A stretch of DNA of 63,996 nucleotides, filler included, from Alcyonidium flabelliforme (taxonomy: Eukaryota): assembly GCA_026167845.1 (NCBI GenBank). It is 19 parts of 19 records of this genome, joined end to end, with 100 filler letters (N's around TTAATTAATTAA, not from the genome) between each part and the next. Parts side by side here need not be neighbours in the genome. Positions count along the whole stretch, not along the records: positions 1 to 4,110 come from JAOQFJ010000010.1; 18 more parts are not named here. One strand, given 5' to 3'. A program made the translations under genes and the position numbers. Shown here one piece after another: positions 1 through 11,489 of the stretch. Each line of letters starts with the position of its first letter. Position 1 is the stretch's first letter. Under the pieces are notes generated by a model. The model was given only the letters and a program-made list of their open reading frames with translations, did not search any database and had not been told where the DNA came from.

Positions 1-162
1 GCGATTACCACTCGTGGCTTCAATGAAGCACAAGCGGGCGAGTTGGCAGGTTGGATTTGTGACGTGCTAGACAGCCGCGGTGATGAAGCCGTCGCTACTG
101 AAGTACGCGGTAAAGTAGAAGCGATCTGTAAAGAATTGCCAGTTTACGAAAAAAATCAGTAA
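1..162 (+). CDS. glyA: Serine hydroxymethyltransferase, 3' end (partial)
   Basis: Frame 1 reads [24 protein letters not shown]...[15 protein letters not shown], the typical GlyA C-terminus (A-x-TTRG motif). Confidence 0.93.
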
Positions 163-197
163 TTTTTGTTTGAGCAGTTTTAAACGTTGGTTAAAAT

Positions 198-231
198 AAA
201 AACCGCTTAGCTTTTGCTAGGCGGTTTTTTT
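198..231 (+). terminator. Rho-independent terminator of glyA
   Basis: AAAAACCGCTTAGC-TTTT-GCTAGGCGGTTTTTTT hairpin with U-tract. Confidence 0.9.
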
Positions 232-405
232 GTGAGTAAAATTAGTAAGAGTTTTTGAGAATTCGAGTAGAACAAGGGTGTAGTCAAAGTTTTACGTTTA
301 ACTATTTCACTGCAAAAAAGATAATAAATAATAATGTACAAATACATAAAATAGCTATTCTTAATAAGCTATAATTAATAGTCGATAATTTTTCAGTGGT
401 AAGTT

Positions 406-1626
406 ATGTTAGATCAGTCCATTAATAAGAGTAGTCTCAAATATATAATCAATGACTTTGAACAAAACCTAAAGTTCAAAAGTGAATTCAGTAACGGAAC
501 AGACGTAGTTGTTGAGCAGATTTTGTCACAATATAGAAAAAGTGAACCTTTTGAATTACTTACAGTGAGAAGTATTAAAGGTAAAAAAGCATATCAGGCG
601 GAAGGTATATATCCATACTACCTTCTAAAACGATTCAACGTTACTTTCAAGACGATTACTTCACTTAAACAAGCCAATCGTAATGAAATAGTTTCATCAA
701 TTGTAGCTCTTATCAGAGATAAAAGACCTTATTCTATTATTAGGCTAGACATTGAGCAGTTCTATGAGAGTGTGAACAGAGATATTATTTCAGATAATCT
801 CAAACAAGACATTGCATATAGCAAGTCTACGATAAATATTTTAGAAAAGTGGTTTGACTGCTTCGAAAGAAGTAATGTATCAGGTCTACCTAGAGGATTA
901 AGCGTAAGTGCAAGCTTATCAGAGTATTATCTTCGAGATTTTGACAAGGAAGTACAGAGAATTGAAGGGGTGTTTTACTATGCCAGATTCGTAGACGATA
1001 TTATTATATTTACTACTAATGAGCCTGAAAACACAATAAAAGAAGTTGAAACTCACCTTCCTAAAGGACTTAAGTTTCATCAGAGTAATGAAAAAAGGGA
1101 CGTTTTAATAATACCAAAAGAGAATAATGTTAATAGTGAGAATTTAGAATTTAATTATCTTGGATATGAGTTCTCTATTATAATTGAAAAGAAAAAATTA
1201 ACTACAAAAGTTAATTTCTCTAAGAGAAAAGTAAATAATATTAAGACTAAAATTGTCAAATCCTTATTGAGTTTCAAAGAAAACAACGACTTCAGCTTAC
1301 TGAAATCGAGAGTCTGCTTTCTTACCCATAATTACTATATTCATAATAAGTATCGAGACACTAAAATTAGGAGCGGTATATATTACAATTATCTGTTCAT
1401 TACTCATCCTGAAGAGTGCAGACTTAATGATTTGGATGATTTTCTAAAAGAGTTGCTGTTTAACTCTAGCTCATGTAAACGTGTCTTAGGAAGTATGCAT
1501 GGCTTATCTAATCAGCAACGAAAGATTTTAGTAAGAATGAGGTTTTCCAATGGATATATTGATAAGAGATTCCATAAGTTTACCTATAGAAAAATGATGC
1601 AGATAAAATCTTGTTGGAGCTATTGA
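406..1626 (+). CDS. drt3a: Defence-associated reverse transcriptase, Drt3a-like (UG3 group), 406 aa
   Basis: RT motifs RLDIEQFYESV, GLPRGLSVSASLSE, YARFVDDIIIF, FNYLGYEF; C-terminal GIYYNY; directly upstream of a second, larger RT. Confidence 0.85.
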   Translation: MLDQSINKSSLKYIINDFEQNLKFKSEFSNGTDVVVEQILSQYRKSEPFELLTVRSIKGKKAYQAEGIYPYYLLKRFNVTFKTITSLKQANRNEIVSSIVALIRDKRPYSIIRLDIEQFYESVNRDIISDNLKQDIAYSKSTINILEKWFDCFERSNVSGLPRGLSVSASLSEYYLRDFDKEVQRIEGVFYYARFVDDIIIFTTNEPENTIKEVETHLPKGLKFHQSNEKRDVLIIPKENNVNSENLEFNYLGYEFSIIIEKKKLTTKVNFSKRKVNNIKTKIVKSLLSFKENNDFSLLKSRVCFLTHNYYIHNKYRDTKIRSGIYYNYLFITHPEECRLNDLDDFLKELLFNSSSCKRVLGSMHGLSNQQRKILVRMRFSNGYIDKRFHKFTYRKMMQIKSCWSY

Positions 1627-3635
1627 TGAGTAAGACCAAATTCCACTTATCTTCAGATGATTTTTATAGAATGCTCTTGTCAGATGTACAGCCGTATCAT
1701 ATGCCTATGATATTTAGTAATGAGGGTTTTTATTATGCAGTCAAATCAAACAATAGGTTTAAAGCTTTAAGCGAAGAAATTGATGATAACAATGATTTAA
1801 GAACATTTGAAGTTGCTACTTCTACAGTTCCTTATGTTTACTATATAAATAAAAACTCACACTCATTAAGGGAATTGTCCTTAATACATCCATATCAACA
1901 GCTTAAGTTTGTTGACTTCTATAGTAACTATCATTCCTTAATTTTATACTACTGTAAGAAAAGTAGTTTTTCGCTCCGCTATCCCGCTAAAAGAAATAGT
2001 ACAGTTTATAGCTCAAGACATAAGAAAATATATGAAAAGATTATCAATGAGTATAAATCGGAACACCCTGATCTAGTGTCTGATGATAAAGTATTTAAAT
2101 ATGCTTCTACTTTCTTTTCTTACCGAAAATATGATTTTAATTATAAGTTTTATGAGTCTACAGAGTTTGTAAGACTTGAAAGAAAATATCCCTATCTAAG
2201 AATGATGGATGTCGCTAGATGTTTTGATAGTATTTATACCCATAGCATTTCTTGGGCAGTTAAGGGTAAAGAGTACATCAAAACTAATATATCGGCTCCT
2301 AAGAATAACTCTTCGTTTGATGAGGAGTTTGATAAAATTATGCAAGCTTCAAATTATCAAGAGACTAATGGAATTCTTGTAGGGTCTGAGGTTGCGAGAA
2401 TTTTTGCCGAAGTAATACTTCAAGAAATCGACGAAAACATTATTGAAGAGTTAGCTGCTAAAAATATATATAACAATAGAGACTATACGATTAGACGTTA
2501 TGTAGATGATTTCTGTATATTTGCCACCAATCAAGAAAAGTTAGAGACTATATCAGACACTATAGTAAATGAATTAATGGTATATAAGCTGTTCATAAAC
2601 TCTAGTAAAACCAAGGACTATATTAGACCTTTCATAACTAACCGTTCGAAAAATATTATTGACCTAAGACGACTAATTAATCAACAGATGAGTGATATTC
2701 TAGAAAAAATAACATCAAGAGATGAGTCTGATAAAGCAACAAACTATTATTATTTTCCAAATAAGAGGTTGTTGAAGAATCCAACCAGATTATCTACGCG
2801 TTTCTTAAAAGACTTAAAAAGTTATTGGCATGTTGAAAAGGAGTTAGAAACTGGTTTTTCAAGCTATTTACTTAAGACATTAAACAAACAAGTCCTAATG
2901 TTTATGGAAAAGTTGGATATTAAACAGGTTGACGAAGACGACTTCGATTTTATAATAAATTATTTTATTTTTATATTTGACTTATCTTTATATGCATTAT
3001 CTCTTGAACCTAAGGTTACTCAGTCTTTCTCATTTTCTCGCCTGATTCTAATTATGACTCGTTTCAGTAAAGTTGAGTTAGAAGATTACCATGAGAAATT
3101 TGCTCATAGAATACATACTGGTCTCACTGACTTATTACAAAATGAGTTGTCGACCAATTCTGCTTGTATGGTTGAGCGTCTGAATATCTTACTTACGCTA
3201 AATGATATTGGAGAGTATTACTTACCCAGTGAAGAGAACTTAAAAAGTTATATTTTTGGTGTGAATAACTCTAATATTGACTACTTTTCTTTAATAACAG
3301 GGTTATTCATTGTGAGACGTAAGAGTAACTATAGTAGCCTTCATAGCTTTATTATAGAAAACATAAAAAACAAGCTGCAAGCTTTTCCAGAAGTTAAAAA
3401 ATCCTCAGAAGCTATGCATCTTTATATGGACTCTATGAGTTGTCCATACATTAGTTATAATGAGAAGAAGGCTATTACGAAGGTAGTAGTGGAGAAGTTT
3501 GTTAGCCCAAACCGTCAGCATACAATAATCAAAGAATATATCGATTTTTTTAGTCAATATTATTGGTTTGTCAATTGGAGTGAGATAGATATTTTAAGCA
3601 AGTTATTCAGAAAGCAGTTGAGACGTGCATATTAA
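1626..3635 (+). CDS. drt3b: Defence-associated reverse transcriptase, Drt3b-like (UG8 group), about 669 aa
   Basis: RT motifs MDVARCFDSIYTHSISWA, GILVGSEVARIFAE, RRYVDDFCIF; ATG at 1626 overlaps the drt3a stop (TGATG), a better start than the listed TTG at 1611. Confidence 0.85.
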   Translation: MSKTKFHLSSDDFYRMLLSDVQPYHMPMIFSNEGFYYAVKSNNRFKALSEEIDDNNDLRTFEVATSTVPYVYYINKNSHSLRELSLIHPYQQLKFVDFYSNYHSLILYYCKKSSFSLRYPAKRNSTVYSSRHKKIYEKIINEYKSEHPDLVSDDKVFKYASTFFSYRKYDFNYKFYESTEFVRLERKYPYLRMMDVARCFDSIYTHSISWAVKGKEYIKTNISAPKNNSSFDEEFDKIMQASNYQETNGILVGSEVARIFAEVILQEIDENIIEELAAKNIYNNRDYTIRRYVDDFCIFATNQEKLETISDTIVNELMVYKLFINSSKTKDYIRPFITNRSKNIIDLRRLINQQMSDILEKITSRDESDKATNYYYFPNKRLLKNPTRLSTRFLKDLKSYWHVEKELETGFSSYLLKTLNKQVLMFMEKLDIKQVDEDDFDFIINYFIFIFDLSLYALSLEPKVTQSFSFSRLILIMTRFSKVELEDYHEKFAHRIHTGLTDLLQNELSTNSACMVERLNILLTLNDIGEYYLPSEENLKSYIFGVNNSNIDYFSLITGLFIVRRKSNYSSLHSFIIENIKNKLQAFPEVKKSSEAMHLYMDSMSCPYISYNEKKAITKVVVEKFVSPNRQHTIIKEYIDFFSQYYWFVNWSEIDILSKLFRKQLRRAY

Positions 3636-3699
3636 TTTGATAGATTGTACTTGGCATTCTATCTAGCTGTCTGTTTTACATTAGATGTTTTGATGGAAG

Positions 3700-3935
3700 C
3701 TCTTTTGAGTTTTAACCCAATTTTAAGCATGTGTATCTGTTAGTTTGCAATATTGAGGCTAACTATGCATTGAAATAAGTCTTAGCTGTAGGGAAGCGCC
3801 TAGTTTTTATGATAGTCGCACACACCATACAGAAGCGGTAGAGTGTCACTATTTATCAAATTTTAAAATTATTTATAAGTATTCTTCGAGCTACCCAAAC
3901 AGAAAGCCCCGATTATAAAAATATAATCGGGGCTT
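3700..3935 (+). ncRNA. Putative DRT3 non-coding RNA (boundaries approximate)
   Basis: No long ORF after drt3b; hairpins at 3729-3770, 3789-3802 and 3812-3852; ACACAC at 3820-3825; ends at the terminator hairpin 3904-3935. Confidence 0.65.
3904..3935. terminator. Probable bidirectional terminator between the DRT3 cassette and gltS
   Basis: Perfect 14-bp stem AAGCCCCGATTATA-AAAA-TATAATCGGGGCTT between convergent genes. Confidence 0.85.
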
Positions 3936-3975
3936 ATTTATATCAACTCAGTTTAACCTTTTACTATTGAACAAA

Positions 3976-4110
3976 TCACATAAACGGCAACTTCGTAAAT
4001 ATCTGCAATACCGTGGCATTGACAATATCGACAAAGAAAGCACCAACCATCGGCACAATTAAGAACGCTTTAGGCGAGGCCAAGTAGCGATCCGTTACCG
4101 CCTGCATATT
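3976..4110 (-). CDS. gltS: Sodium/glutamate symporter, 3' end (partial)
   Basis: Minus strand reads NMQAVTDRYLASPKAFLIVPMVGAFFVDIVNATVLQIFTKLPFM*, matching the GltS C-terminus. Confidence 0.88.
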   Translation of the reverse strand, partial: NMQAVTDRYLASPKAFLIVPMVGAFFVDIVNATVLQIFTKLPFM

Positions 4111-4210
4111 NNNNNNNNNNNNNNNNNNNNNNNNNNNNNNNNNNNNNNNNNNNNTTAATTAATTAANNNNNNNNNNNNNNNNNNNNNNNNNNNNNNNNNN
4201 NNNNNNNNNN
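4111..4210. other. Artificial contig spacer N44-TTAATTAATTAA-N44 (first of 18 identical spacers)
   Basis: The same 100-bp linker with stops in all six frames recurs between all contigs. Confidence 0.99.
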
Positions 4211-4342
4211 TTGGGATAGCCTAAGTATTTTAAGCAGGGATCAGAATGCCGACTCTGCTTAAAATTATAAGGGTAGGATAAGGTTCTGAGTATTATTAAG
4301 CCGTACTTAACAAGAGAGCACAAAGCAGCCCAACAGACAAAC

Positions 4343-4375
4343 GGGCTAATATCTGACTATGGGATGTCCCATTTT
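4343..4375 (-). promoter_or_regulatory. Putative ColE2-type replication origin
   Basis: Immediately after the rep stop the minus strand reads AAAATGGGACATCCCATAGTCAGATATTAGCCC, resembling ColE2-family origins (AAAATGAGAC...TCAGATA..AGC.CC) in the expected position. Confidence 0.6.
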
Positions 4376-5369
4376 ATTTTTTATTCTTCTGAATGCCCCA
4401 CCGTGTAAGGGTTCTACGGTTTACTTGTAATTTCTCTGCGATAACTTTGAGATTAACGCCCTCAGACGCCCATTTTTGCGCTTGGATTACCTTATCAGTG
4501 TTATCGCCCCAATAGGCTTTAGAACGCTTGCTCTGAAGCTCTGAGAAGCTTTTATGGCTCTTTGAGAAGTCCGTCTTTGAACAGTATCGGGCAATACTGG
4601 TAGCTATATGTTTGACTTCGTTAGGTAACAACGGTTCTTCAAAATCATTGTTGATTTGTTTTGCAATCGGTAGGATTTCTGCCAGTAACGCACGATATGT
4701 ACCACCACCAATCTTGTATGCTTCTACTCTCACTCGATCAAACAAGCTGCAATTGCGACCAAAACCAGCGTCATTAGCAGCTTTGTTAGTTTTGATGGAG
4801 TTATGAACCTCAGTGAAATTAACAAGCTCTATCAGGCGTTCTTCTAATTCATTCAGTGTGTAACCTTCGCTTGGTGCAGTAGTGACGCTGTATGTCCTCC
4901 ACATAGCATTGACTGGGTTCTTCATCAGGTTGCCGCTATAGCCTTTGTCGCCACCTAATGCCCATCTAAGACCTTTTTCGATTTTAGCTAAGTAACGTAT
5001 AGGATGAGAACGCGCCTTACCATACATGAATACAGGCTGTTTCAGCTTATAAACTAAGTGTGCATGTCCATTGTTTGGGTTTTGTATAATGAGATGTGGT
5101 GAAGGTACTTCCGATAGTTCTTTTAATGTCTTATGCAGAGTATCTGAATCATCTACATCTATGACGATGTAACGTATCTTGTGAGGTGGGTTAGGTTGTA
5201 TAAGAGCTTTTTTAATAGCGTAGGCTTTAGGAAGGATGTTCGTAAATACATTACCCTCAGCATTTTTCCCGTCACTACAGTAGGGTTTGTTTGCTAAATT
5301 TTCATAAAATTCGAGGGTTTCTGGGTATTCTTGCCACTCAGATGGGCGTATTGACACTATGTTATACAT
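4374..5369 (-). CDS. rep: ColE2-type plasmid replication initiator (Replicase + PriCT-1 + C-terminal HTH)
   Basis: KPYCSD, VIDVD, NPNNGHAHLVYKL, D.GYSG.LMKNP, GRNCSLFD, EVKHIATSIARY, C-terminal HTH IAEKLQVNRRTLTRW. Confidence 0.88.
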   Translation of the reverse strand: MYNIVSIRPSEWQEYPETLEFYENLANKPYCSDGKNAEGNVFTNILPKAYAIKKALIQPNPPHKIRYIVIDVDDSDTLHKTLKELSEVPSPHLIIQNPNNGHAHLVYKLKQPVFMYGKARSHPIRYLAKIEKGLRWALGGDKGYSGNLMKNPVNAMWRTYSVTTAPSEGYTLNELEERLIELVNFTEVHNSIKTNKAANDAGFGRNCSLFDRVRVEAYKIGGGTYRALLAEILPIAKQINNDFEEPLLPNEVKHIATSIARYCSKTDFSKSHKSFSELQSKRSKAYWGDNTDKVIQAQKWASEGVNLKVIAEKLQVNRRTLTRWGIQKNKK

Positions 5370-5458
5370 GCGTAGGCACTTGTGTTAGTGCGTCAGCTGA
5401 TATAAAATGACTTTATCGAAAAGTGGGTTTATATCTGCCAACACAGATTAAATTCATC

Positions 5459-5490
5459 CTAACCCCTGAGCCTGCCAGCTCAGGGGTTAG
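5459..5490. promoter_or_regulatory. Strong hairpin in the rep leader; candidate terminator or stem of a copy-control antisense RNA
   Basis: CTAACCCCTGAGC-CTGCCA-GCTCAGGGGTTAG, perfect 13-bp stem upstream of rep. Confidence 0.55.
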
Positions 5491-5612
5491 TCGTTTCTAG
5501 CGTATAATATTACGCTGTAAAATGTTCGCGGTCAACTGCCAATCCTTTATGTGGTGGGGCTTACAGGATGACGCCTTTATTCATCAGGATGAATCAGCAC
5601 TTACTTCTCATT

Positions 5613-7397
5613 TTAAGAATAATTCATACTATTATCATAAGGTGAATCATTTTGCGGTTTTGGCTCCGAACTTTGTTGTACGGGTTTTTCAATTTTTGGC
5701 TCTGTATTAACAACAGGATTAAGAGAATCTAGTTTCTCTAAGTCATGAAAATCGCATTTTATGTCGTATTTCTCTGCGAACTCACGAATACCAAGTGCTT
5801 CTGATGCTTTTCTAAGCCCAAAATCGATCAGGATACGAGCGTCACTCAAAACATTTTCATCTAGCATAAACTTCTCAAACGCTCTAGCCGTACTATTTTG
5901 GGCGTATTCTGGGTTTAGTTGCTTACCTTGTTTACTTGTATTCGTTATGATTATTTTGTGGTTTCCCTTGATAGCGTTTTTTATAAGCGTGTGTACTTCA
6001 CCAGAAACATGCGAAATAACATCTCTATGTAAAAGCGTAATATTTCCGTATTTATCTGTTTCACCTATCTGAATTCTTAGACCAAGCGTCCGAATCATTC
6101 CAGAAGGCTTCCTTTTTTCTATGCGCTGACGTTCTGCCTCCTTCTCCTCTGCCTGTATCGTTGTTAATTCCTGTTGTCTTTGCTGTTCTCTTGCCTGCGT
6201 CTGTACATCAGGTCCTTGTATGAGTTGATCATATTCTTCAATCGTATTTGTAAGAAGCTGTTTTCTGTCTCTAATTCTTTGTTCTGAGCTTGTAATGAAC
6301 TGTTTAATGTCGATAATTCTTCGTTTTGAGCTTGTAATGAACTGTTTAGTGTCACTAATTCTTCGCTTGGCTCTATCAATAGTTTGTGCTGTTTCTTCGA
6401 CTCGTTTTCGGTGTAATCTATATCTCGGATATGACTCGTCAATTCGTTGGCTTCTATAGCCAATAATGCGCTGGTGTGATTTGTCTGTTTCAACTGATGC
6501 TCTAATGCTTTGATGTCCATATTCTGATAGTTCACCGTATTCCGCAATTGCTCGTTCACTGCTACCAATTGCTCTATTTGCTCTGTCAATTGCTGTACTT
6601 GCTCGCTCATGTGATTCCTTATCAATTTTTCCTAACTCATCAATAATATTAATAGCCAGGCTATCTAGCTTGGCTTGTTCGAAATCATTTCTAGCAGTTA
6701 GTAGGTTGGTATAAATTTCTTTGACGTCCGCACGTTTAATCTGCTGCATTGATAAATTAATTGGCTCTCTATCAATCCCTTGTTCCTTAAGGCTTTTCAT
6801 ACTTATTCGAGCGTCTGACCCTGCCAACTCAAGATGGGAGTTACATAGTTTTTCCCACCTATCACGTTGGTCTTTCAATTCTAGTTTTCGTTCACTTTCG
6901 AACTTAGGCGTATTCGCCTTCTTAGCTCCGCCAGACTCGGGTTTTTTAGCATTAAAACGCTTAAAGTATTGGTCTGGATCGCGCTCTATGCCGTCTATTA
7001 AGCGTTCGCTAAACATAATATGAGCATGTGGTTGTTCTAAGCCGTCCATAGCTAAAGGGTTATGTATGGCATATTGATAAGCATGTTTTTCACCAATTTC
7101 TTGATGAATCCATTCTTTAATCAACTCATGGCGTTGGTCTGCTGTTAGCTCCCTTGGTAATGTAATTATATGCTCTCGATAAGATGTGCCGTTTTTTCGC
7201 TCTTTATCATCAGACATTTTCCAGAAAAAATTAGGATCAGCTTGTGCCCATTTAGGCATGTTCCCGTGCCCTGTTCCTTCTAGCTTTTCCAGACCATCAT
7301 TATGCTTAGCATACTTACCCTCGCGTGCAATATATTGGGCATGAGGGCCTCCTTTACCTTTGACTCCCACCACGACACTTAATCTACCGATTGCCAT
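5613..7397 (-). CDS. mobA: MobA/MobL-family (MOBQ) relaxase with long coiled-coil C-terminus
   Basis: N-terminal MAIGRLSV, HAQYIAREGKY, ERKNGTSYREHIITLPREL, AIHNP...QPHAHIMFSER (3H motif). Confidence 0.92.
   Translation of the reverse strand: MAIGRLSVVVGVKGKGGPHAQYIAREGKYAKHNDGLEKLEGTGHGNMPKWAQADPNFFWKMSDDKERKNGTSYREHIITLPRELTADQRHELIKEWIHQEIGEKHAYQYAIHNPLAMDGLEQPHAHIMFSERLIDGIERDPDQYFKRFNAKKPESGGAKKANTPKFESERKLELKDQRDRWEKLCNSHLELAGSDARISMKSLKEQGIDREPINLSMQQIKRADVKEIYTNLLTARNDFEQAKLDSLAINIIDELGKIDKESHERASTAIDRANRAIGSSERAIAEYGELSEYGHQSIRASVETDKSHQRIIGYRSQRIDESYPRYRLHRKRVEETAQTIDRAKRRISDTKQFITSSKRRIIDIKQFITSSEQRIRDRKQLLTNTIEEYDQLIQGPDVQTQAREQQRQQELTTIQAEEKEAERQRIEKRKPSGMIRTLGLRIQIGETDKYGNITLLHRDVISHVSGEVHTLIKNAIKGNHKIIITNTSKQGKQLNPEYAQNSTARAFEKFMLDENVLSDARILIDFGLRKASEALGIREFAEKYDIKCDFHDLEKLDSLNPVVNTEPKIEKPVQQSSEPKPQNDSPYDNSMNYS
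6164..6625 (-). CDS. Overlapping alternative-frame coiled-coil ORF inside mobA (MobB-like)
   Basis: 153-aa ORF in a different frame with heptad pattern and 14-aa repeat; analogous to mobB nested in RSF1010 mobA. Confidence 0.45.
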   Translation of the reverse strand: MIRNHMSEQVQQLTEQIEQLVAVNEQLRNTVNYQNMDIKALEHQLKQTNHTSALLAIEANELTSHIRDIDYTENESKKQHKLLIEPSEELVTLNSSLQAQNEELSTLNSSLQAQNKELETENSFLQIRLKNMINSYKDLMYRRRQENSKDNRN

Positions 7398-7474
7398 TTT
7401 TTTGCTCTTTTGTTTTTAGCAGGCGTTTAGCCTGTTGGGGGTTTTTAAGGGGGTCTTTTTTCCCCTTAACACGC

Positions 7475-7528
7475 TAGTTTCTCATAATGTACCGAAGGGG
7501 AATTATGAGAAACTACTAAGCGTGCCTT
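7475..7528 (+). promoter_or_regulatory. MOBQ-type origin of transfer (oriT)
   Basis: 14-bp inverted repeat TAGTTTCTCATAAT/ATTATGAGAAACTA followed by TAAGCGTGCCTT, similar to the MOBQ nic consensus TAAGTGCGCCCT; lies between divergent mob genes. Confidence 0.75.
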
Positions 7529-7623
7529 GTCTTACTCAGACAAGGGTTAAAAACCTTTCGCTGCTCAGATATTATCATAGTATGCTAGGATGATCACAAA
7601 CTAAAATATGGATTAAAAAACAC

Positions 7624-8034
7624 ATGGCAAATATTGATAGAGACTATCTTGATGCGCTCGTTTCACGGTTTAAAGGCTACAAGTCACCTAATGATACCCA
7701 AAAGCTTATTATCGCTTTAGGTGATAAATTCGAGCGTTCAGATGATGACAACAAAAAACTTGCCGTCCTTCTCAAAGCTGAAAAGAAAGCTGACGAACTG
7801 ACTAAGGCAAGGGCTGCTACCCAAAGGATATTAAATGCTGAGAAGGCTGCTATTAAAAAACATGAAACACGCAAAAAGATACTTTGGGGTGCTGCATTGA
7901 AAAAGGCTAGCGAGAATAACCCTGAAATGGCTCAAGTTATGCAAACTCTCTACAACCATGGATACATAGCCGAAAGAGATAAGAGTGTTGTAGAAGAAGA
8001 TTTACCAGAGCAAATGCCACAAATCACTAGATAG
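7624..8034 (+). CDS. Mobilisation accessory protein (MobS/MobC-like)
   Basis: Divergent from mobA across oriT; HETRKKILWGA resembles the conserved motif of MOBQ accessory proteins. Confidence 0.65.
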   Translation: MANIDRDYLDALVSRFKGYKSPNDTQKLIIALGDKFERSDDDNKKLAVLLKAEKKADELTKARAATQRILNAEKAAIKKHETRKKILWGAALKKASENNPEMAQVMQTLYNHGYIAERDKSVVEEDLPEQMPQITR

Positions 8035-8417
8035 CTCTAGAATGGCTCAGAAGACGCCTTAAAAGGAATAAAGCTACAATGGCAGCAGGAAAACGATTGA
8101 GAGGGCAAATTAGCGATATTTGAGCCATTTAGAGGGGTTACGATAGGCAATGAGTATGTAAATATTAAGGTATAGGATTAGCTACAACGTCCAAAGCTAT
8201 GAATAAGGGGATAATTAATACGCTGTAGAGAGTTTATCTATTGGGATAGCCTAAGTATTTTAAGCAGGGATCAGAATGCCGACTCTGCTTAAAATTATAA
8301 GGGTAGGATAAGGTTCTNNNNNNNNNNNNNNNNNNNNNNNNNNNNNNNNNNNNNNNNNNNNTTAATTAATTAANNNNNNNNNNNNNNNNNNNNNNNNNNN
8401 NNNNNNNNNNNNNNNNN

Positions 8418-8748
8418 TGTTGAAATATGATCGCTCGCTTTATTCTGGTAAAGCTGTGTTTATTTATAAATCGGCTGACTCTAACTTTGTTCCCCTAGAA
8501 GCTGATATTAATAAAATTCGAGGCCCTAAATCTGGTTTTACTGAAGCATTCACCCCACAGTTTTCCCCAAAAAACATCTCACCTCAGGACTTAACACATA
8601 ATAATATATTAACTCTAGAAGAGTGTTATGTACCTCCAAATGTGGAGCATATATTTTGTCGGTTTTCTTTGAGAGTTCAGGCTAACTCATTGGTTCCTTC
8701 AGGCTGTAGTGACCCAGAGGTTTTCTCTTTATTAGAAGAGTTGGCAAA
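8418..8748 (+). pseudogene. cas7f: N-terminal fragment of type I-F CRISPR backbone protein Cas7f/Csy3 (I-F3 CAST-like)
   Basis: LKYDRSLYSGKAVF.YK....FVPLEA....IRG.K.GFTEAF...EECYVPPNVEHIFCRFSLRVQANSL.PSGCSDPEV matches my recollection of Cas7f of Tn7-associated I-F3 systems. Confidence 0.72.
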
Positions 8749-11489
8749 TGTGAAGGTGGACACTGCCCTTCGATTCTATCCATTTAGAATAACGTATGAC
8801 ATCGAGTGTTTCTTGCCAAAGATTAATCTTCCCTCCAATACCGACTCTGTAGAATTCACATCGAGTCATCACCTTCTCAGTATTTCTACATGCTCAAACA
8901 TTCCGGGTTTCACCAATCCTAAGTGTTTTGTGAGGGAAACCCAAAATTCCTCAGCAAAATGTGTTTCACAATTTGTAGAGTACATTCTCGAGATGAGCGA
9001 GACAGCCGGTTCAATAATGATCGAACGATTTAGTGAGGTATCGACAGACTTGATAAGGTTATCGGAGATGTTGAGTTGAAGGAGAAAGACTTTAAAGATG
9101 CAGAATTTTCAAATCCATTTGTCTATCGTACAAGAGCTAATCTCTCGGATCTATGCGAGCGCTTGGTCTGTTATCTGCGAGTTGTACCAATTGTCGGCTT
9201 TAACTCTCAACGATACGATATCAACGTTATGAAGGGGGAGTTGATAAGAGAATTAGGACATCAAGGAGAAAAGATCCGCTCTGTGGTAAAGAAAACCAAC
9301 AACATGACTTGTATCGAAACCAACCATCTGAGGTTTTTGGACATTTGCAACTTCATTGCACCTGGATTTTCTTACGAGAAATATCTAAAAGCTTTTGGGT
9401 GTAGCCAGGAAAAGGGATTTTTTCCATACGAATGGATGGACTCACTTGAAAAACTTTCATTAACTGAGTTACCATCGAGACAAGATTTCTATAGTACGCT
9501 AAGGCAATCAAACATCTCTGCTGAGGAATATGACTACTGTCAAGAAATATGGCGTAGTCGACAAATGAACAGTTTCAGAGATTTTCTTATATGGTACAAC
9601 AATCTCGATGTTGAACCGTTTCTGGAAGCTTTGGAAAAGCAGTCTGAGATATATCGTGCAAAGGAAATTGACATGCTAAAGGGGGCAATATCTTTACCTG
9701 GATTGGCCGTTAGATGGTTGTTTTCAGAGATTCCTCCGTTACCAAGAGCGATACGTAACGCTTCTTACTCATTTGTGGAGTTGAAACGTTATCACAGAGA
9801 ACGTCAACCGATTTGTCTTATCGATAAAGCAAATAGAGATCTGCATAGGATTGTCAAGGATAATATTGTTGGAGGACCGAGTGTGATATTTCACCGACAT
9901 CATGAAAAGGGAGAGAGTAGTATTCGAGAAAGGATCTATCAATCGGATGCCAAAGAATGTCAGCAGATACTCGGTGTCGATGCCAATGCGTTATATTTGT
10001 GGTGTATGATGCAAGATATGCCAACTGGTTACCCAATACGTAGAAGGAATGAGAATAATTTTGAACCTGATAAAACCCAACGATTCAGCAAGGCTGCACA
10101 CGGATGGTTGGAGTATGTCGCTTTTGTCAGTGGAGAAGATATTAAGCATATACGTAATGGGAATGAGGTCAGAATAGGTAGACATGGTCTTCCCGTCGAC
10201 GGTTACTGCAAAGACACCAGAACAATCTATCAGTTTCACGGTTGTTTTTGGCACGGACATCCATGTTGCAAGACTGCGGGCATAGTTGATCATCCGTTAA
10301 AGCATAAACCGATGGCTACTTTGCATGCCGAGACTCTGGAAAAGGATAAATATCTGAGACATCTCGGTTACAAACTTGTCGTGACATGGGAGTGTGAGTG
10401 GGATAGAACCGTTAGAAATAGTAATATCATAAAGGAATTTCTGGCGTCTCTATTCCAAGCAATATACGGAAGTAAAAGTGGGATGACACAAAGTGAAGCC
10501 ATAGAGAGAATTCAGAGGGGCGACTTCTATGGTCTCGTAGAATGTGATATATCCGTACCATCCCATCTTCATCGTAAATTTGCAGAAATGTCTCCCATAT
10601 TTAAGAATGTGAATGTTGGGCGCGAACAATTGAGTGACCAATGCTAGAGTTTGCTGACGCGTTTGAATTTCTAAAGAGACCTCAACGGATGATGGTGGGG
10701 AGTATGTTTGGAAAGAAAATCTTATTGCTCAGTACACTTGCCCGATGGTATCTAAATCATGGATTGGAAATTACTAAAATATATCAGATGATAGACTACA
10801 TTCCCAGGAGAGTATTCAACGAGTTTGGTGAATCTGTAAGCAGTGCAAGACGGGCAGGAGATGAGGATCCAAGTCTTGCACTATTAGCTTCCACAAGCAA
10901 ACTAGTGGGAAACTCCGTATATGGGAAGACTATTACGGATAAAGAGAAACATAGGGATGTGGCCTATGTTGAGGGAGATCGGGCAGTCTCTAACAGGATT
11001 AAGAGGACCAACTTTGTATCGTTGGATGAGATTGATGAGGAATTCTATGAAGTTACCACACAGAAAAAAAGGGTAAGAGTTATATTGTTATAGTTTAGTT
11101 TGCTCAGTTACAATTTATTTGTGCGTTACTTTCCTTCACTAGCGATGCATCATTGCTGAATGTTGTTGTTTTGTAAATCCTACGACATCGTTTTACATCT
11201 GGTCGTTGCTATTGAGATTGTAAATGCTATGACGATTCCTCCAATAGTACCTAAGAGTTACAGTTTGTTGTTTGGCTTAGGTATAAATGGTTACTCGACG
11301 GCTTGTTTTGTCAAAGCTCTCCATTCTCGTAGTCGTAAGTATGTTTAGAGTTTGATTATCTTGTATTTTACCGTTTGTTATTTGTTTCATATTGTAGCTG
11401 AACATGAACATACCCGTCACATTGGGCTTTGCTATCCTTCAGCTTGCAAAAATGCGAATGCTGGAGTTCTACTTTGACTTCATGGATAG
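8749..11489 (+). pseudogene. Polinton/Maverick-like protein-primed family B DNA polymerase with inserted VSR-like nuclease; frameshifted and intron-containing
   Basis: YDIEC, GFNSQRYD, KGFFPYEW, YNNLDV, IVGGPS, GVDANALY, VDGY...FHGCFWHG...WECEW, KLVGNSVYGK; frameshifts near 9076 and 10641; additional exon at 11398-11489. Confidence 0.85.

What the first reader, a model, noticed from the sequence alone, without database searches (positions are those of the whole stretch)
406..3935. Complete two-RT plus ncRNA anti-phage cassette (DRT type 3-like)
Seen: two intact, unrelated RTs (FVDD and YVDD catalytic motifs) coupled by a TGATG overlap, followed by a structured ORF-free region and a terminator. 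No nuclease, toxin or other effector ORF lies between glyA and gltS. Established: this layout matches DRT type 3 (UG3 + UG8 RTs plus ncRNA), shown to be anti-phage by Gao et al. 2020. Inference: with no effector gene, the DNA made by the RT complex is the likely effector or signal. This is a compact, fully bounded, divergent homologue suitable for cloning.
Basis: partly seen in the sequence, partly recalled or inferred. Interest (0 to 1): 0.9.

Follow-up and report, generated by a model that had tools for sequence, protein, structure and literature searches.

The report
Histidine-gated DRT3 phage-defence variant
This is an intact copy of the known DRT3 anti-phage system (two reverse transcriptases plus a template RNA) from a Psychrobacter-type bacterium, but its second enzyme, like a whole Psychrobacter/Moraxella lineage, has histidine where the adenine-selecting glutamate normally sits, so it likely still writes (CA)n DNA by a different chemical route and offers a natural test of whether protein-templated DNA writing can be retuned.

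Summary
Observation confirmed; the family call is right. 406-1626 is Drt3a and 1626-3635 Drt3b (NCBIfam 356 and 616 bits; cut-offs 200 and 350). They overlap at TGATG and are followed by a predicted long-stem RNA with the ACACAC template unpaired at 3820-3825, then a terminator. DRT3 is already solved: Drt3a copies ACACAC into (TG)n, Drt3b writes (CA)n with no template. A 97%-identical protein is already annotated Drt3b in P. faecalis. The scan earlier noted another, broken DRT3 elsewhere. His marks one Psychrobacter/Moraxella clade (SH-aLRT 99, 43-97% identity); it is seen in 2 of 150 representatives (145 Glu/Asp). Of 105 family-conserved columns it is the only one fixed to a different residue in that clade. 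The priming Tyr, switch Arg, YVDD and RNA template (5 of 5 loci) are kept, with dN/dS about 0.13. Most likely His reads adenine and the product stays mostly (CA)n; a changed product is possible (about 0.2). No activity was tested. New variant of a known kind; interest 0.5.

The parts
1..162 (+). 3' end of glyA (serine hydroxymethyltransferase), left flank
   Evidence: 83-93% DNA match to the end of full-length glyA in Psychrobacter loci
198..229 (+). glyA terminator-like hairpin; left edge of the variable site
   Evidence: inverted repeat I8; present after glyA in 20 of 20 loci fetched
240..405 (+). AT-rich leader, presumed promoter region (inferred)
   Evidence: several 9/12 sigma-70-like matches, but 26 found vs 18.6 +/- 4.7 by chance over the region: not evidence of a promoter
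406..1626 (+). drt3a, class 2 (UG3) RT, 406 aa; FVDD at 988-999
   Evidence: NF041747 356 bits vs cut-off 200; 9z6y_A E 1e-48; FVDD is common in the family, 46 of 141 loci read
1624..1628 (+). TGATG stop/start overlap
1626..3635 (+). drt3b, class 1 (UG8) RT, 669 aa; R82, G253, R258, YVDD 292-295 and terminal Y669 kept
   Evidence: NF041748 616 bits vs cut-off 350; 9z6y_H and 26cz_A E about 1e-93 to 1e-95; residues mapped
1698..1700 (+). His25 codon (CAT) at the adenine gate, Glu22/Glu26 in the solved enzymes
   Evidence: gap-free alignment to both PDB chains; His in 17 of 120 nearest clusters and 2 of 150 representatives; CAT or CAC in relatives
1689..1691 (+). Gln22, fixed in the His clade; candidate partner of His25 (inferred)
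   Evidence: Q in 14 of 14 His rows, not among the six commonest residues in 237 Glu/Asp proteins
2139..2141 (+). Asn172, fixed in the His clade where Glu/Asp proteins have Leu/Ile; candidate partner (inferred)
   Evidence: N in 54 of 54 full-length His proteins vs L 180 and I 34 of 237
3636..3860 (+). predicted DRT3 ncRNA: long basal stem (3653-3674 with 3829-3847; outer 3636-3648 with 3848-3860), inner hairpins; ends not mapped
   Evidence: same layout with different sequence in Moraxella loci
3796..3819 (+). hairpin directly 5' of the template (stem-loop-4 position)
   Evidence: kept with changed stem bases in P. coccoides L204
3820..3825 (+). ACACAC template
   Evidence: predicted unpaired probability 0.94; about 0.06 expected by chance in 300 nt on one strand from 24 copies on both strands of 62,412 bases
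3904..3935 (.). bidirectional terminator-like hairpin shared with gltS
3976..4110 (-). 3' end of gltS (sodium/glutamate symporter), right flank, cut by an assembly join
   Evidence: N run starts at 4111

Best explanation
This is an intact DRT3 cassette whose Drt3b carries a lineage-wide Glu-to-His change at the adenine gate and likely still makes mostly (CA)n DNA, which would pair with the (TG)n that Drt3a is predicted to copy from the RNA's ACACAC and so likely stop phage by abortive infection. Steps: (1) drt3a, drt3b and the RNA form one unit (layout shown; co-transcription inferred). (2) Drt3a copies ACACAC repeatedly into (TG)n (shown for E. coli DRT3; inferred here). (3) Drt3b primes on Tyr669 and alternates C and A without a template. 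Arg258 is the C reader and phase switch (kept). His25 replaces the carboxylate as acceptor for the adenine N6 amine, perhaps held in the right tautomer by the clade-specific Gln22 or Asn172 (inferred, no distances measured). Some dG leak is likely, since a neutral Gln at this site is reported to give about 20% dG. (4) The strands anneal; RecBCD keeps the duplex low until a phage inhibitor lets it build up and growth stops (shown in E. coli; inferred here).
For: Family membership. All other published key residues are kept: R82, D195, F200, R258, Y292, D294, Y669 and G253. His is in one clade with SH-aLRT 99 nested among Glu/Asp proteins, spanning 43-97% identity. It is the only one of 105 family-conserved columns fixed to a different residue in the 14 His rows; 86 are fixed to the usual one. 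Both His codons occur. dN/dS is 0.14 (L001 vs L068) and 0.12 (window vs L205, first 108 codons). ACACAC is kept in 5 of 5 His-clade loci with downstream DNA, so the (TG)n strand is unchanged and selection for pairing favours (CA)n. AlphaFold model pLDDT 90, and 91-93 over residues 11-40. Full-length RecB-like genes in 4 of 5 Psychrobacter/Moraxella genomes. Mechanism from PMC13174585.
Against: No activity was measured. In E. coli Drt3b the acid is said to exclude dG and dT by charge repulsion, and E22A and E22K nearly abolish synthesis (PMC13174585); His cannot supply that repulsion. Two of the 5 His-clade loci carry a frame break (L068 in drt3a, L079 in drt3b), both from metagenome assemblies. 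Several Moraxella cluster members are short (196-469 aa) on 68-77 kb contigs, so decay occurs in the clade. In P. coccoides the His codon and the template lie on different contigs of one genome. The RecB matches are below the curated cut-off (491-504 vs 696 bits). The tree is the quick version, without bootstraps.
Confidence: 0.62

Rival explanations
1. His25 retunes the protein template. Drt3b writes a different repeat, such as G-rich (C-G/C-A mixtures, partly self-complementary) or a T-containing one, so the defence DNA is a mismatched or self-paired polymer rather than a clean (CA)/(TG) duplex.
For: Loss of the carboxylate removes the reported barrier to dG and dT. Gln at this site is reported to let in about 20% dG (10.64898/2026.06.23.734074 citing Deng et al.). 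His can donate a hydrogen bond to a carbonyl (general chemistry). Gln22, Asn172 and Ser/Ala254 change with it, which suggests a rebuilt pocket.
Against: The RNA template did not change in 5 of 5 His-clade loci, and defence in E. coli needs complementary strands. Arg258 and Gly253 are unchanged.
Confidence: 0.2
2. His25 throttles Drt3b. It makes little DNA and acts mainly as scaffold and stimulator of Drt3a, giving a less toxic, lower-output DRT3.
For: Non-acidic substitutions nearly abolish synthesis in E. coli Drt3b, and catalytically dead Drt3b still boosts Drt3a yield in vitro. Broken copies occur in the clade.
Against: The priming Tyr, YVDD, R82 and R258 stay conserved across the clade; a mere scaffold would not need them. 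E. coli defence requires both active sites.
Confidence: 0.13
3. An ordinary DRT3: the His is a misalignment, an assembly error or a tolerated neutral change.
For: 169 of 669 columns are invariant in the 14 His rows, and 25 of 310 otherwise variable columns are too, so invariance alone is not rare.
Against: The alignment around the site is gap-free and anchored by flanking prolines in both solved enzymes. His appears in 17 separate 90% clusters. Glu to His needs two base changes from GAA/GAG to CAT. All 237 other full-length proteins with a residue there have Glu or Asp.
Confidence: 0.05

Closest known systems
E. coli DRT3 with Drt3b hexamer (PDB 26cz; Wang et al., PMC13174585)
   Same: Gene order drt3a-drt3b-ncRNA, ACACAC template next to a hairpin, R71/D182/F187/R241/YVDD/Y666 equivalents all kept.
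   Different: Gate E22 is His25; GPE before the switch Arg is GSE; Drt3a has FVDD; only Asp, Ala and Lys substitutions at the gate are described in the text I read.
E. coli DRT3 6:6:6 complex (PDB 9z6y/9z6z; Deng et al. 2026, seen only through PMC13314766, PMC13213688, PMC13434031 and 10.64898/2026.06.23.734074)
   Same: Full-length sequence match to both RT chains; Arg253 and Gly248 equivalents kept.
   Different: Glu26 is His; the predicted RNA here is about 200-225 nt against 130 nt reported for E. coli.
Drt3b proteins annotated in Psychrobacter faecalis (WP_443550268.1), P. submarinus, P. coccoides, Moraxella caprae and M. nonliquefaciens
   Same: Same His clade; 97% identity to the P. faecalis protein.
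   Different: Database annotation only; I found no paper on them.
Natural Asp-gate Drt3b homologues
   Same: Natural change at the same position (32 of 150 representatives).
   Different: Asp keeps the carboxylate and partial activity; His removes the charge.
Class 1 UG/Abi polymerases AbiK, DRT4 (UG15), DRT6
   Same: Best structural matches to the Drt3b model in a library that predates the DRT3 structures.
   Different: Single-gene systems, 15-19% identity; DRT4 and AbiK are reported to make random DNA.

Membership tests
DRT3 (UG3+UG8) | Upstream RT of the Drt3a/UG3 family | tested here: met
   NF041747 356 bits vs 200; PADLOC Drt3a 1.7e-113, next family 7.8e-31
DRT3 (UG3+UG8) | Adjacent downstream RT of the Drt3b/UG8 family | tested here: met
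   NF041748 616 bits vs 350; PADLOC Drt3b 1.1e-189, next family 2e-42
DRT3 (UG3+UG8) | Downstream structured ncRNA with single-stranded ACACAC beside a hairpin | tested here: met
   ACACAC at 3820-3825, unpaired 0.94, hairpin 3796-3819, basal stem; prediction only, no covariance model built
DRT3 (UG3+UG8) | Catalytic aspartates in both RTs; Drt3b C-terminal priming Tyr; switch Arg; stacking Arg | tested here: met
DRT3 (UG3+UG8) | Acidic adenine-gate residue in Drt3b (E22/E26; Asp in some) | tested here: not met
   His25. This is a mechanistic residue, not part of the gene-level family definition; it is why the locus is filed as a variant
DRT3 (UG3+UG8) | ncRNA is transcribed and bound by the complex | tested here: inconclusive
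   only contigs of RNA runs were available; they cannot show level, ends or strand
DRT3 (UG3+UG8) | Makes poly(GT/AC) dsDNA and protects against phage | not testable with these tools
   needs biochemistry and plaque assays
Retron / group II intron / Abi RT | RT scores best with these families | tested here: not met
   group II maturase 68 and 34 bits vs cut-off 300; retron model 1e-9, AbiK 6e-21

The most novel reading that the evidence does not exclude
The Psychrobacter/Moraxella His clade is a naturally reprogrammed protein-templated polymerase: a rebuilt pocket (Gln22, His25, Asn172, Ser/Ala254) writes a repeat other than (CA)n, for example a CG-rich self-pairing polymer, making it the first DRT3 subtype with a different output and showing that amino-acid templating of DNA can be recoded.
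Probability: 0.2. Interest if true: 0.85.

Novelty: new variant of a known kind. Interest (0 to 1): 0.5.

Why it matters
Drt3b is the model for DNA sequence being dictated by amino-acid side chains, and the acidic gate is central to the published mechanism. A review lists as open whether DRT3 subtypes with other outputs exist, and names natural variants at these active-site positions as the productive next step (PMC13314766 section 7). This clade is such a variant, under purifying selection and ready to clone as one 3.7-kb unit. Either result is informative. If the product stays (CA)n, the charge-exclusion model is incomplete and His is a second way to read adenine. If it changes, protein templating is recodable.

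Tried and rejected
Rfam: nothing reaches a gathering score in 150-4100; five weak hits fall on the terminator hairpins. Repeats: nothing beyond short chance pairs and the hairpins. Promoter scan: not above shuffles by much. RNAalifold on five His-clade RNAs failed because MAFFT misaligned RNAs of different length. Sixty-five Glu/Asp-gate template regions shared only the template (and they were chosen for it), so no covariance model was built. The first AlphaFold run (21 sequences) was poor, pLDDT 66.5 and under 50 at residues 1-32. The second was good, but coordinates are not returned, so His25-Gln22-Asn172 distances were not measured. Foldseek could not reach the DRT3 structures, which postdate its library. 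RNA runs: one run has a 153-nt contig at 3670-3822 with no mismatch, depth 14.8 against about 4 for ORF pieces. Contigs cannot show level, ends or strand and one run is no evidence, so it is not used. Raw-read confirmation of the His codon in DNA runs was not obtained; the codon rests on independent homologues instead. No whole genome is held for the window, so recBCD and greA were not checked in the host itself; greA was not searched at all. dN/dS for distant pairs is saturated (pS 0.65-0.75) and only the two least saturated pairs are quoted. The careful tree did not finish. Plasmid collection: 8 records with Drt3b, all under 37% identity, none close to this clade. Complex prediction was not used: a textbook pair. 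Rejected ideas: template co-variation with the His gate (not seen); a hidden effector ORF (none); FVDD as unusual (46 of 141).
Full report
Observation. The window starts in the last 53 codons of glyA, followed by its terminator hairpin (198-229). Then come ORF 406-1626 (406 aa, FVDD), ORF 1626-3635 (669 aa, YVDD) joined by TGATG, an interval without any ORF of 40 aa, a 14-bp hairpin at 3904-3935 that scores as a terminator on both strands, and the 3' end of gltS on the minus strand. The flanks match full-length glyA and gltS of Psychrobacter. The window is a string of short contigs joined by N linkers every 3-4 kb. The first join at 4111 cuts gltS, and the plasmid-like genes beyond it are not shown to be neighbours. 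Fifteen of 24 listed public runs hold at least half of the stretch's words (four may be its source), so it is not a one-off assembly.

Family. The ORFs pass the curated cut-offs for Drt3a (356 vs 200 bits) and Drt3b (616 vs 350). PADLOC agrees, and the best PDB sequence matches are the solved E. coli Drt3a and Drt3b over their whole length. A 97%-identical protein is annotated Drt3b in P. faecalis. The downstream region folds into a long basal stem (3653-3674 with 3829-3847). ACACAC at 3820-3825 is predicted single-stranded (0.94) directly 3' of a hairpin. Without the terminator the fold beats 147 of 150 shuffles (z -2.4). The same layout was predicted in 101 of 105 distinct loci, 71 of 105 with the template mostly unpaired. 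These 105 were selected for carrying ACACAC, and an A/C-only word is often unpaired anyway. Thirteen further full-length loci lacked ACACAC within 350 nt.

Known mechanism. In E. coli, Drt3a copies ACACAC into (TG)n. Drt3b primes on its C-terminal Tyr666 and writes (CA)n without a template, with E22 as adenine gate excluding dG and dT and R241 as cytosine reader and switch. The strands anneal, RecBCD keeps the duplex down, and lambda Gam triggers abortive infection. E22A and E22K are almost inactive, and the natural E22D keeps partial activity (PMC13174585).

The unusual feature. Both solved Drt3b chains read P-Y-E at the gate; the window reads P-Y-H in a gap-free alignment. All other named residues are kept. 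Among the 120 best clusters at 90% identity the column has Glu 99, His 17, Asp 2, gap 2 (120 listed of 3,600 found). Among the 150 best representatives at 50% identity it has Glu 113, Asp 32, His 2, gap 3 (150 listed of 753 at E 1e-30 or better). The unlisted hits were not examined, so other His lineages are not excluded. Named His carriers are Psychrobacter and Moraxella. In a quick IQ-TREE of 64 proteins picked by hand from 315 plus the window's, the 14 His rows form one side of a branch with SH-aLRT 99, nested in Glu/Asp proteins. Of 105 columns at least 80% conserved in 237 Glu/Asp proteins, 86 are fixed to the same residue in those 14 rows and exactly one, position 25, is fixed to a different one. 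Gln22 and Asn172 are also fixed in the clade, and Pro254 is Ser or Ala. The His codon is CAT in the window, L001, L068 and L079 and CAC in L205. dN/dS is 0.14 for L001 vs L068 and 0.12 for the window vs the first 108 codons of L205; other pairs are saturated. An AlphaFold model from 150 sequences is confident (pLDDT 90, pTM 0.91), including the gate segment. Its nearest structures in a library older than the DRT3 entries are DRT6, DRT4/UG15 and AbiK.

Does the template follow? No. ACACAC is kept in 5 of 5 His-clade loci with downstream DNA (window, L204, L001, L068, L079); the Moraxella-like ones carry one more AC. Drt3a should still make (TG)n. Since defence needs pairing strands, the simplest reading is that His is a second way to accept the adenine amine, with some dG leak likely. 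A preprint citing Deng et al. gives about 80% dA / 20% dG for the Gln mutant (10.64898/2026.06.23.734074). I put this reading at 0.62, a recoded product at 0.2, a throttled or scaffold-like Drt3b at 0.13, and artefact or neutrality at 0.05. Against function: 2 of the 5 His-clade loci have a frame break (L068, L079), and several Moraxella cluster members are truncated on long contigs. For comparison, 9 of 135 loci of all kinds had a short longest ORF. RecB-like genes are present in 4 of 5 genomes tested, below the curated cut-off.

Context. The glyA-gltS interval is a variable site in Psychrobacter. In 19 of 20 genomes fetched both ends were found, 95 to 5,413 bp apart, 4 of them empty; none holds DRT3. 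Cargo includes an FRG plus GmrSD-domain pair, a toxin-antitoxin-like pair and metabolic genes. Drt3b was found in 5 of 154 Psychrobacter species genomes and 8 of 401 sampled from the family; only two of these genomes, G001 and G002, match above 40% identity. The cassette is about 31% GC against about 40% in the next contig. It is a patchy accessory element (inference).

Literature seen. PMC13174585: abstract, all Results, Discussion, one methods section, first part of the legends, passages, and a term search of 4 supplements held as text (no E22H, Psychrobacter or Moraxella); 'histidine' is absent from its main text. Its Fig. 3K logo is an image I could not see. PMC13314766: abstract, most of section 4, section 7. 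PMC13213688: first part and one passage. PMC13434031 and 10.64898/2026.06.23.734074: passages only; the latter bins homologues as Glu, Gln, Asp or other and never says His26; its supplement is closed. Gao et al. 2020 and Deng et al. 2026 were not seen, only cited by these; Deng's supplementary alignment may show the His clade. Searches for DRT3 with Psychrobacter or Moraxella and Drt3b with E26 gave 0 papers. Drt3b with histidine gave one unrelated mention. So I found no description of a His gate in this library, which lacks most subscription papers. The scan's earlier notes hold one other DRT3, broken, and nothing on the gate.

Verdict. A true, intact DRT3; ordinary as a cassette, but a well-supported natural variant at the residue central to protein-templated synthesis. 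New variant of a known kind, interest 0.5; 0.85 if the product proves different (probability about 0.2).

Noticed in passing
L184-L203 (glyA-gltS interval in 20 Psychrobacter genomes); window 163-3975: The interval is a variable cassette site, 95-5,413 bp. Copies of the glyA terminator hairpin recur after several cargo genes, and L186 repeats the last 48 bases of glyA, which may point to how cassettes are gained.
   Followed up: partly
L189:9859-11648 and L194:1379-3125: Defence-like cargo at the same site: an FRG-domain gene with a GmrSD N-terminal-domain gene, and an unknown 227-aa gene with an HTH/IrrE-like repressor-antitoxin.
   Followed up: partly
L185:1893-3050 (-): A lone 385-aa cargo gene at the glyA-gltS site with no Pfam or NCBIfam match.
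   Followed up: partly
L050, L051, L052, L055, L061, L074, L099, just downstream of drt3b: Glu-gate DRT3 loci (Colwellia, Thalassotalea, Algibacillus, Catenovulum and metagenomes) have CACACGC or ACACGC instead of ACACAC at the template place; L089 has CACACTC.
   Followed up: no
8 of 150 representatives: Drt3b relatives with Asn in place of the second Asp of the catalytic motif.
   Followed up: no
L008-L012, L014, L018, L019 and similar loci: A group of Drt3b relatives shows Thr, Asn or Leu at the column of the stacking Arg and ends a few residues past the last Tyr; may be an alignment shift.
   Followed up: no
L010, L011: The DNA after drt3b reads like an insertion-sequence transposase rather than the RNA, suggesting an interrupted cassette (identity of the element judged by eye).
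   Followed up: no
window 4211-8317: Next contig looks like a small mobilisable plasmid: a Rep-like ORF (4374-5369, -, no NCBIfam hit), a MobQ-like relaxase (5613-7397, -, 70 bits, below cut-off) and a small ORF 7624-8034.
   Followed up: partly
window 8420-9079: ORF at a contig start whose first half resembles a type I-F Cas7 by recall; unchecked.
   Followed up: no
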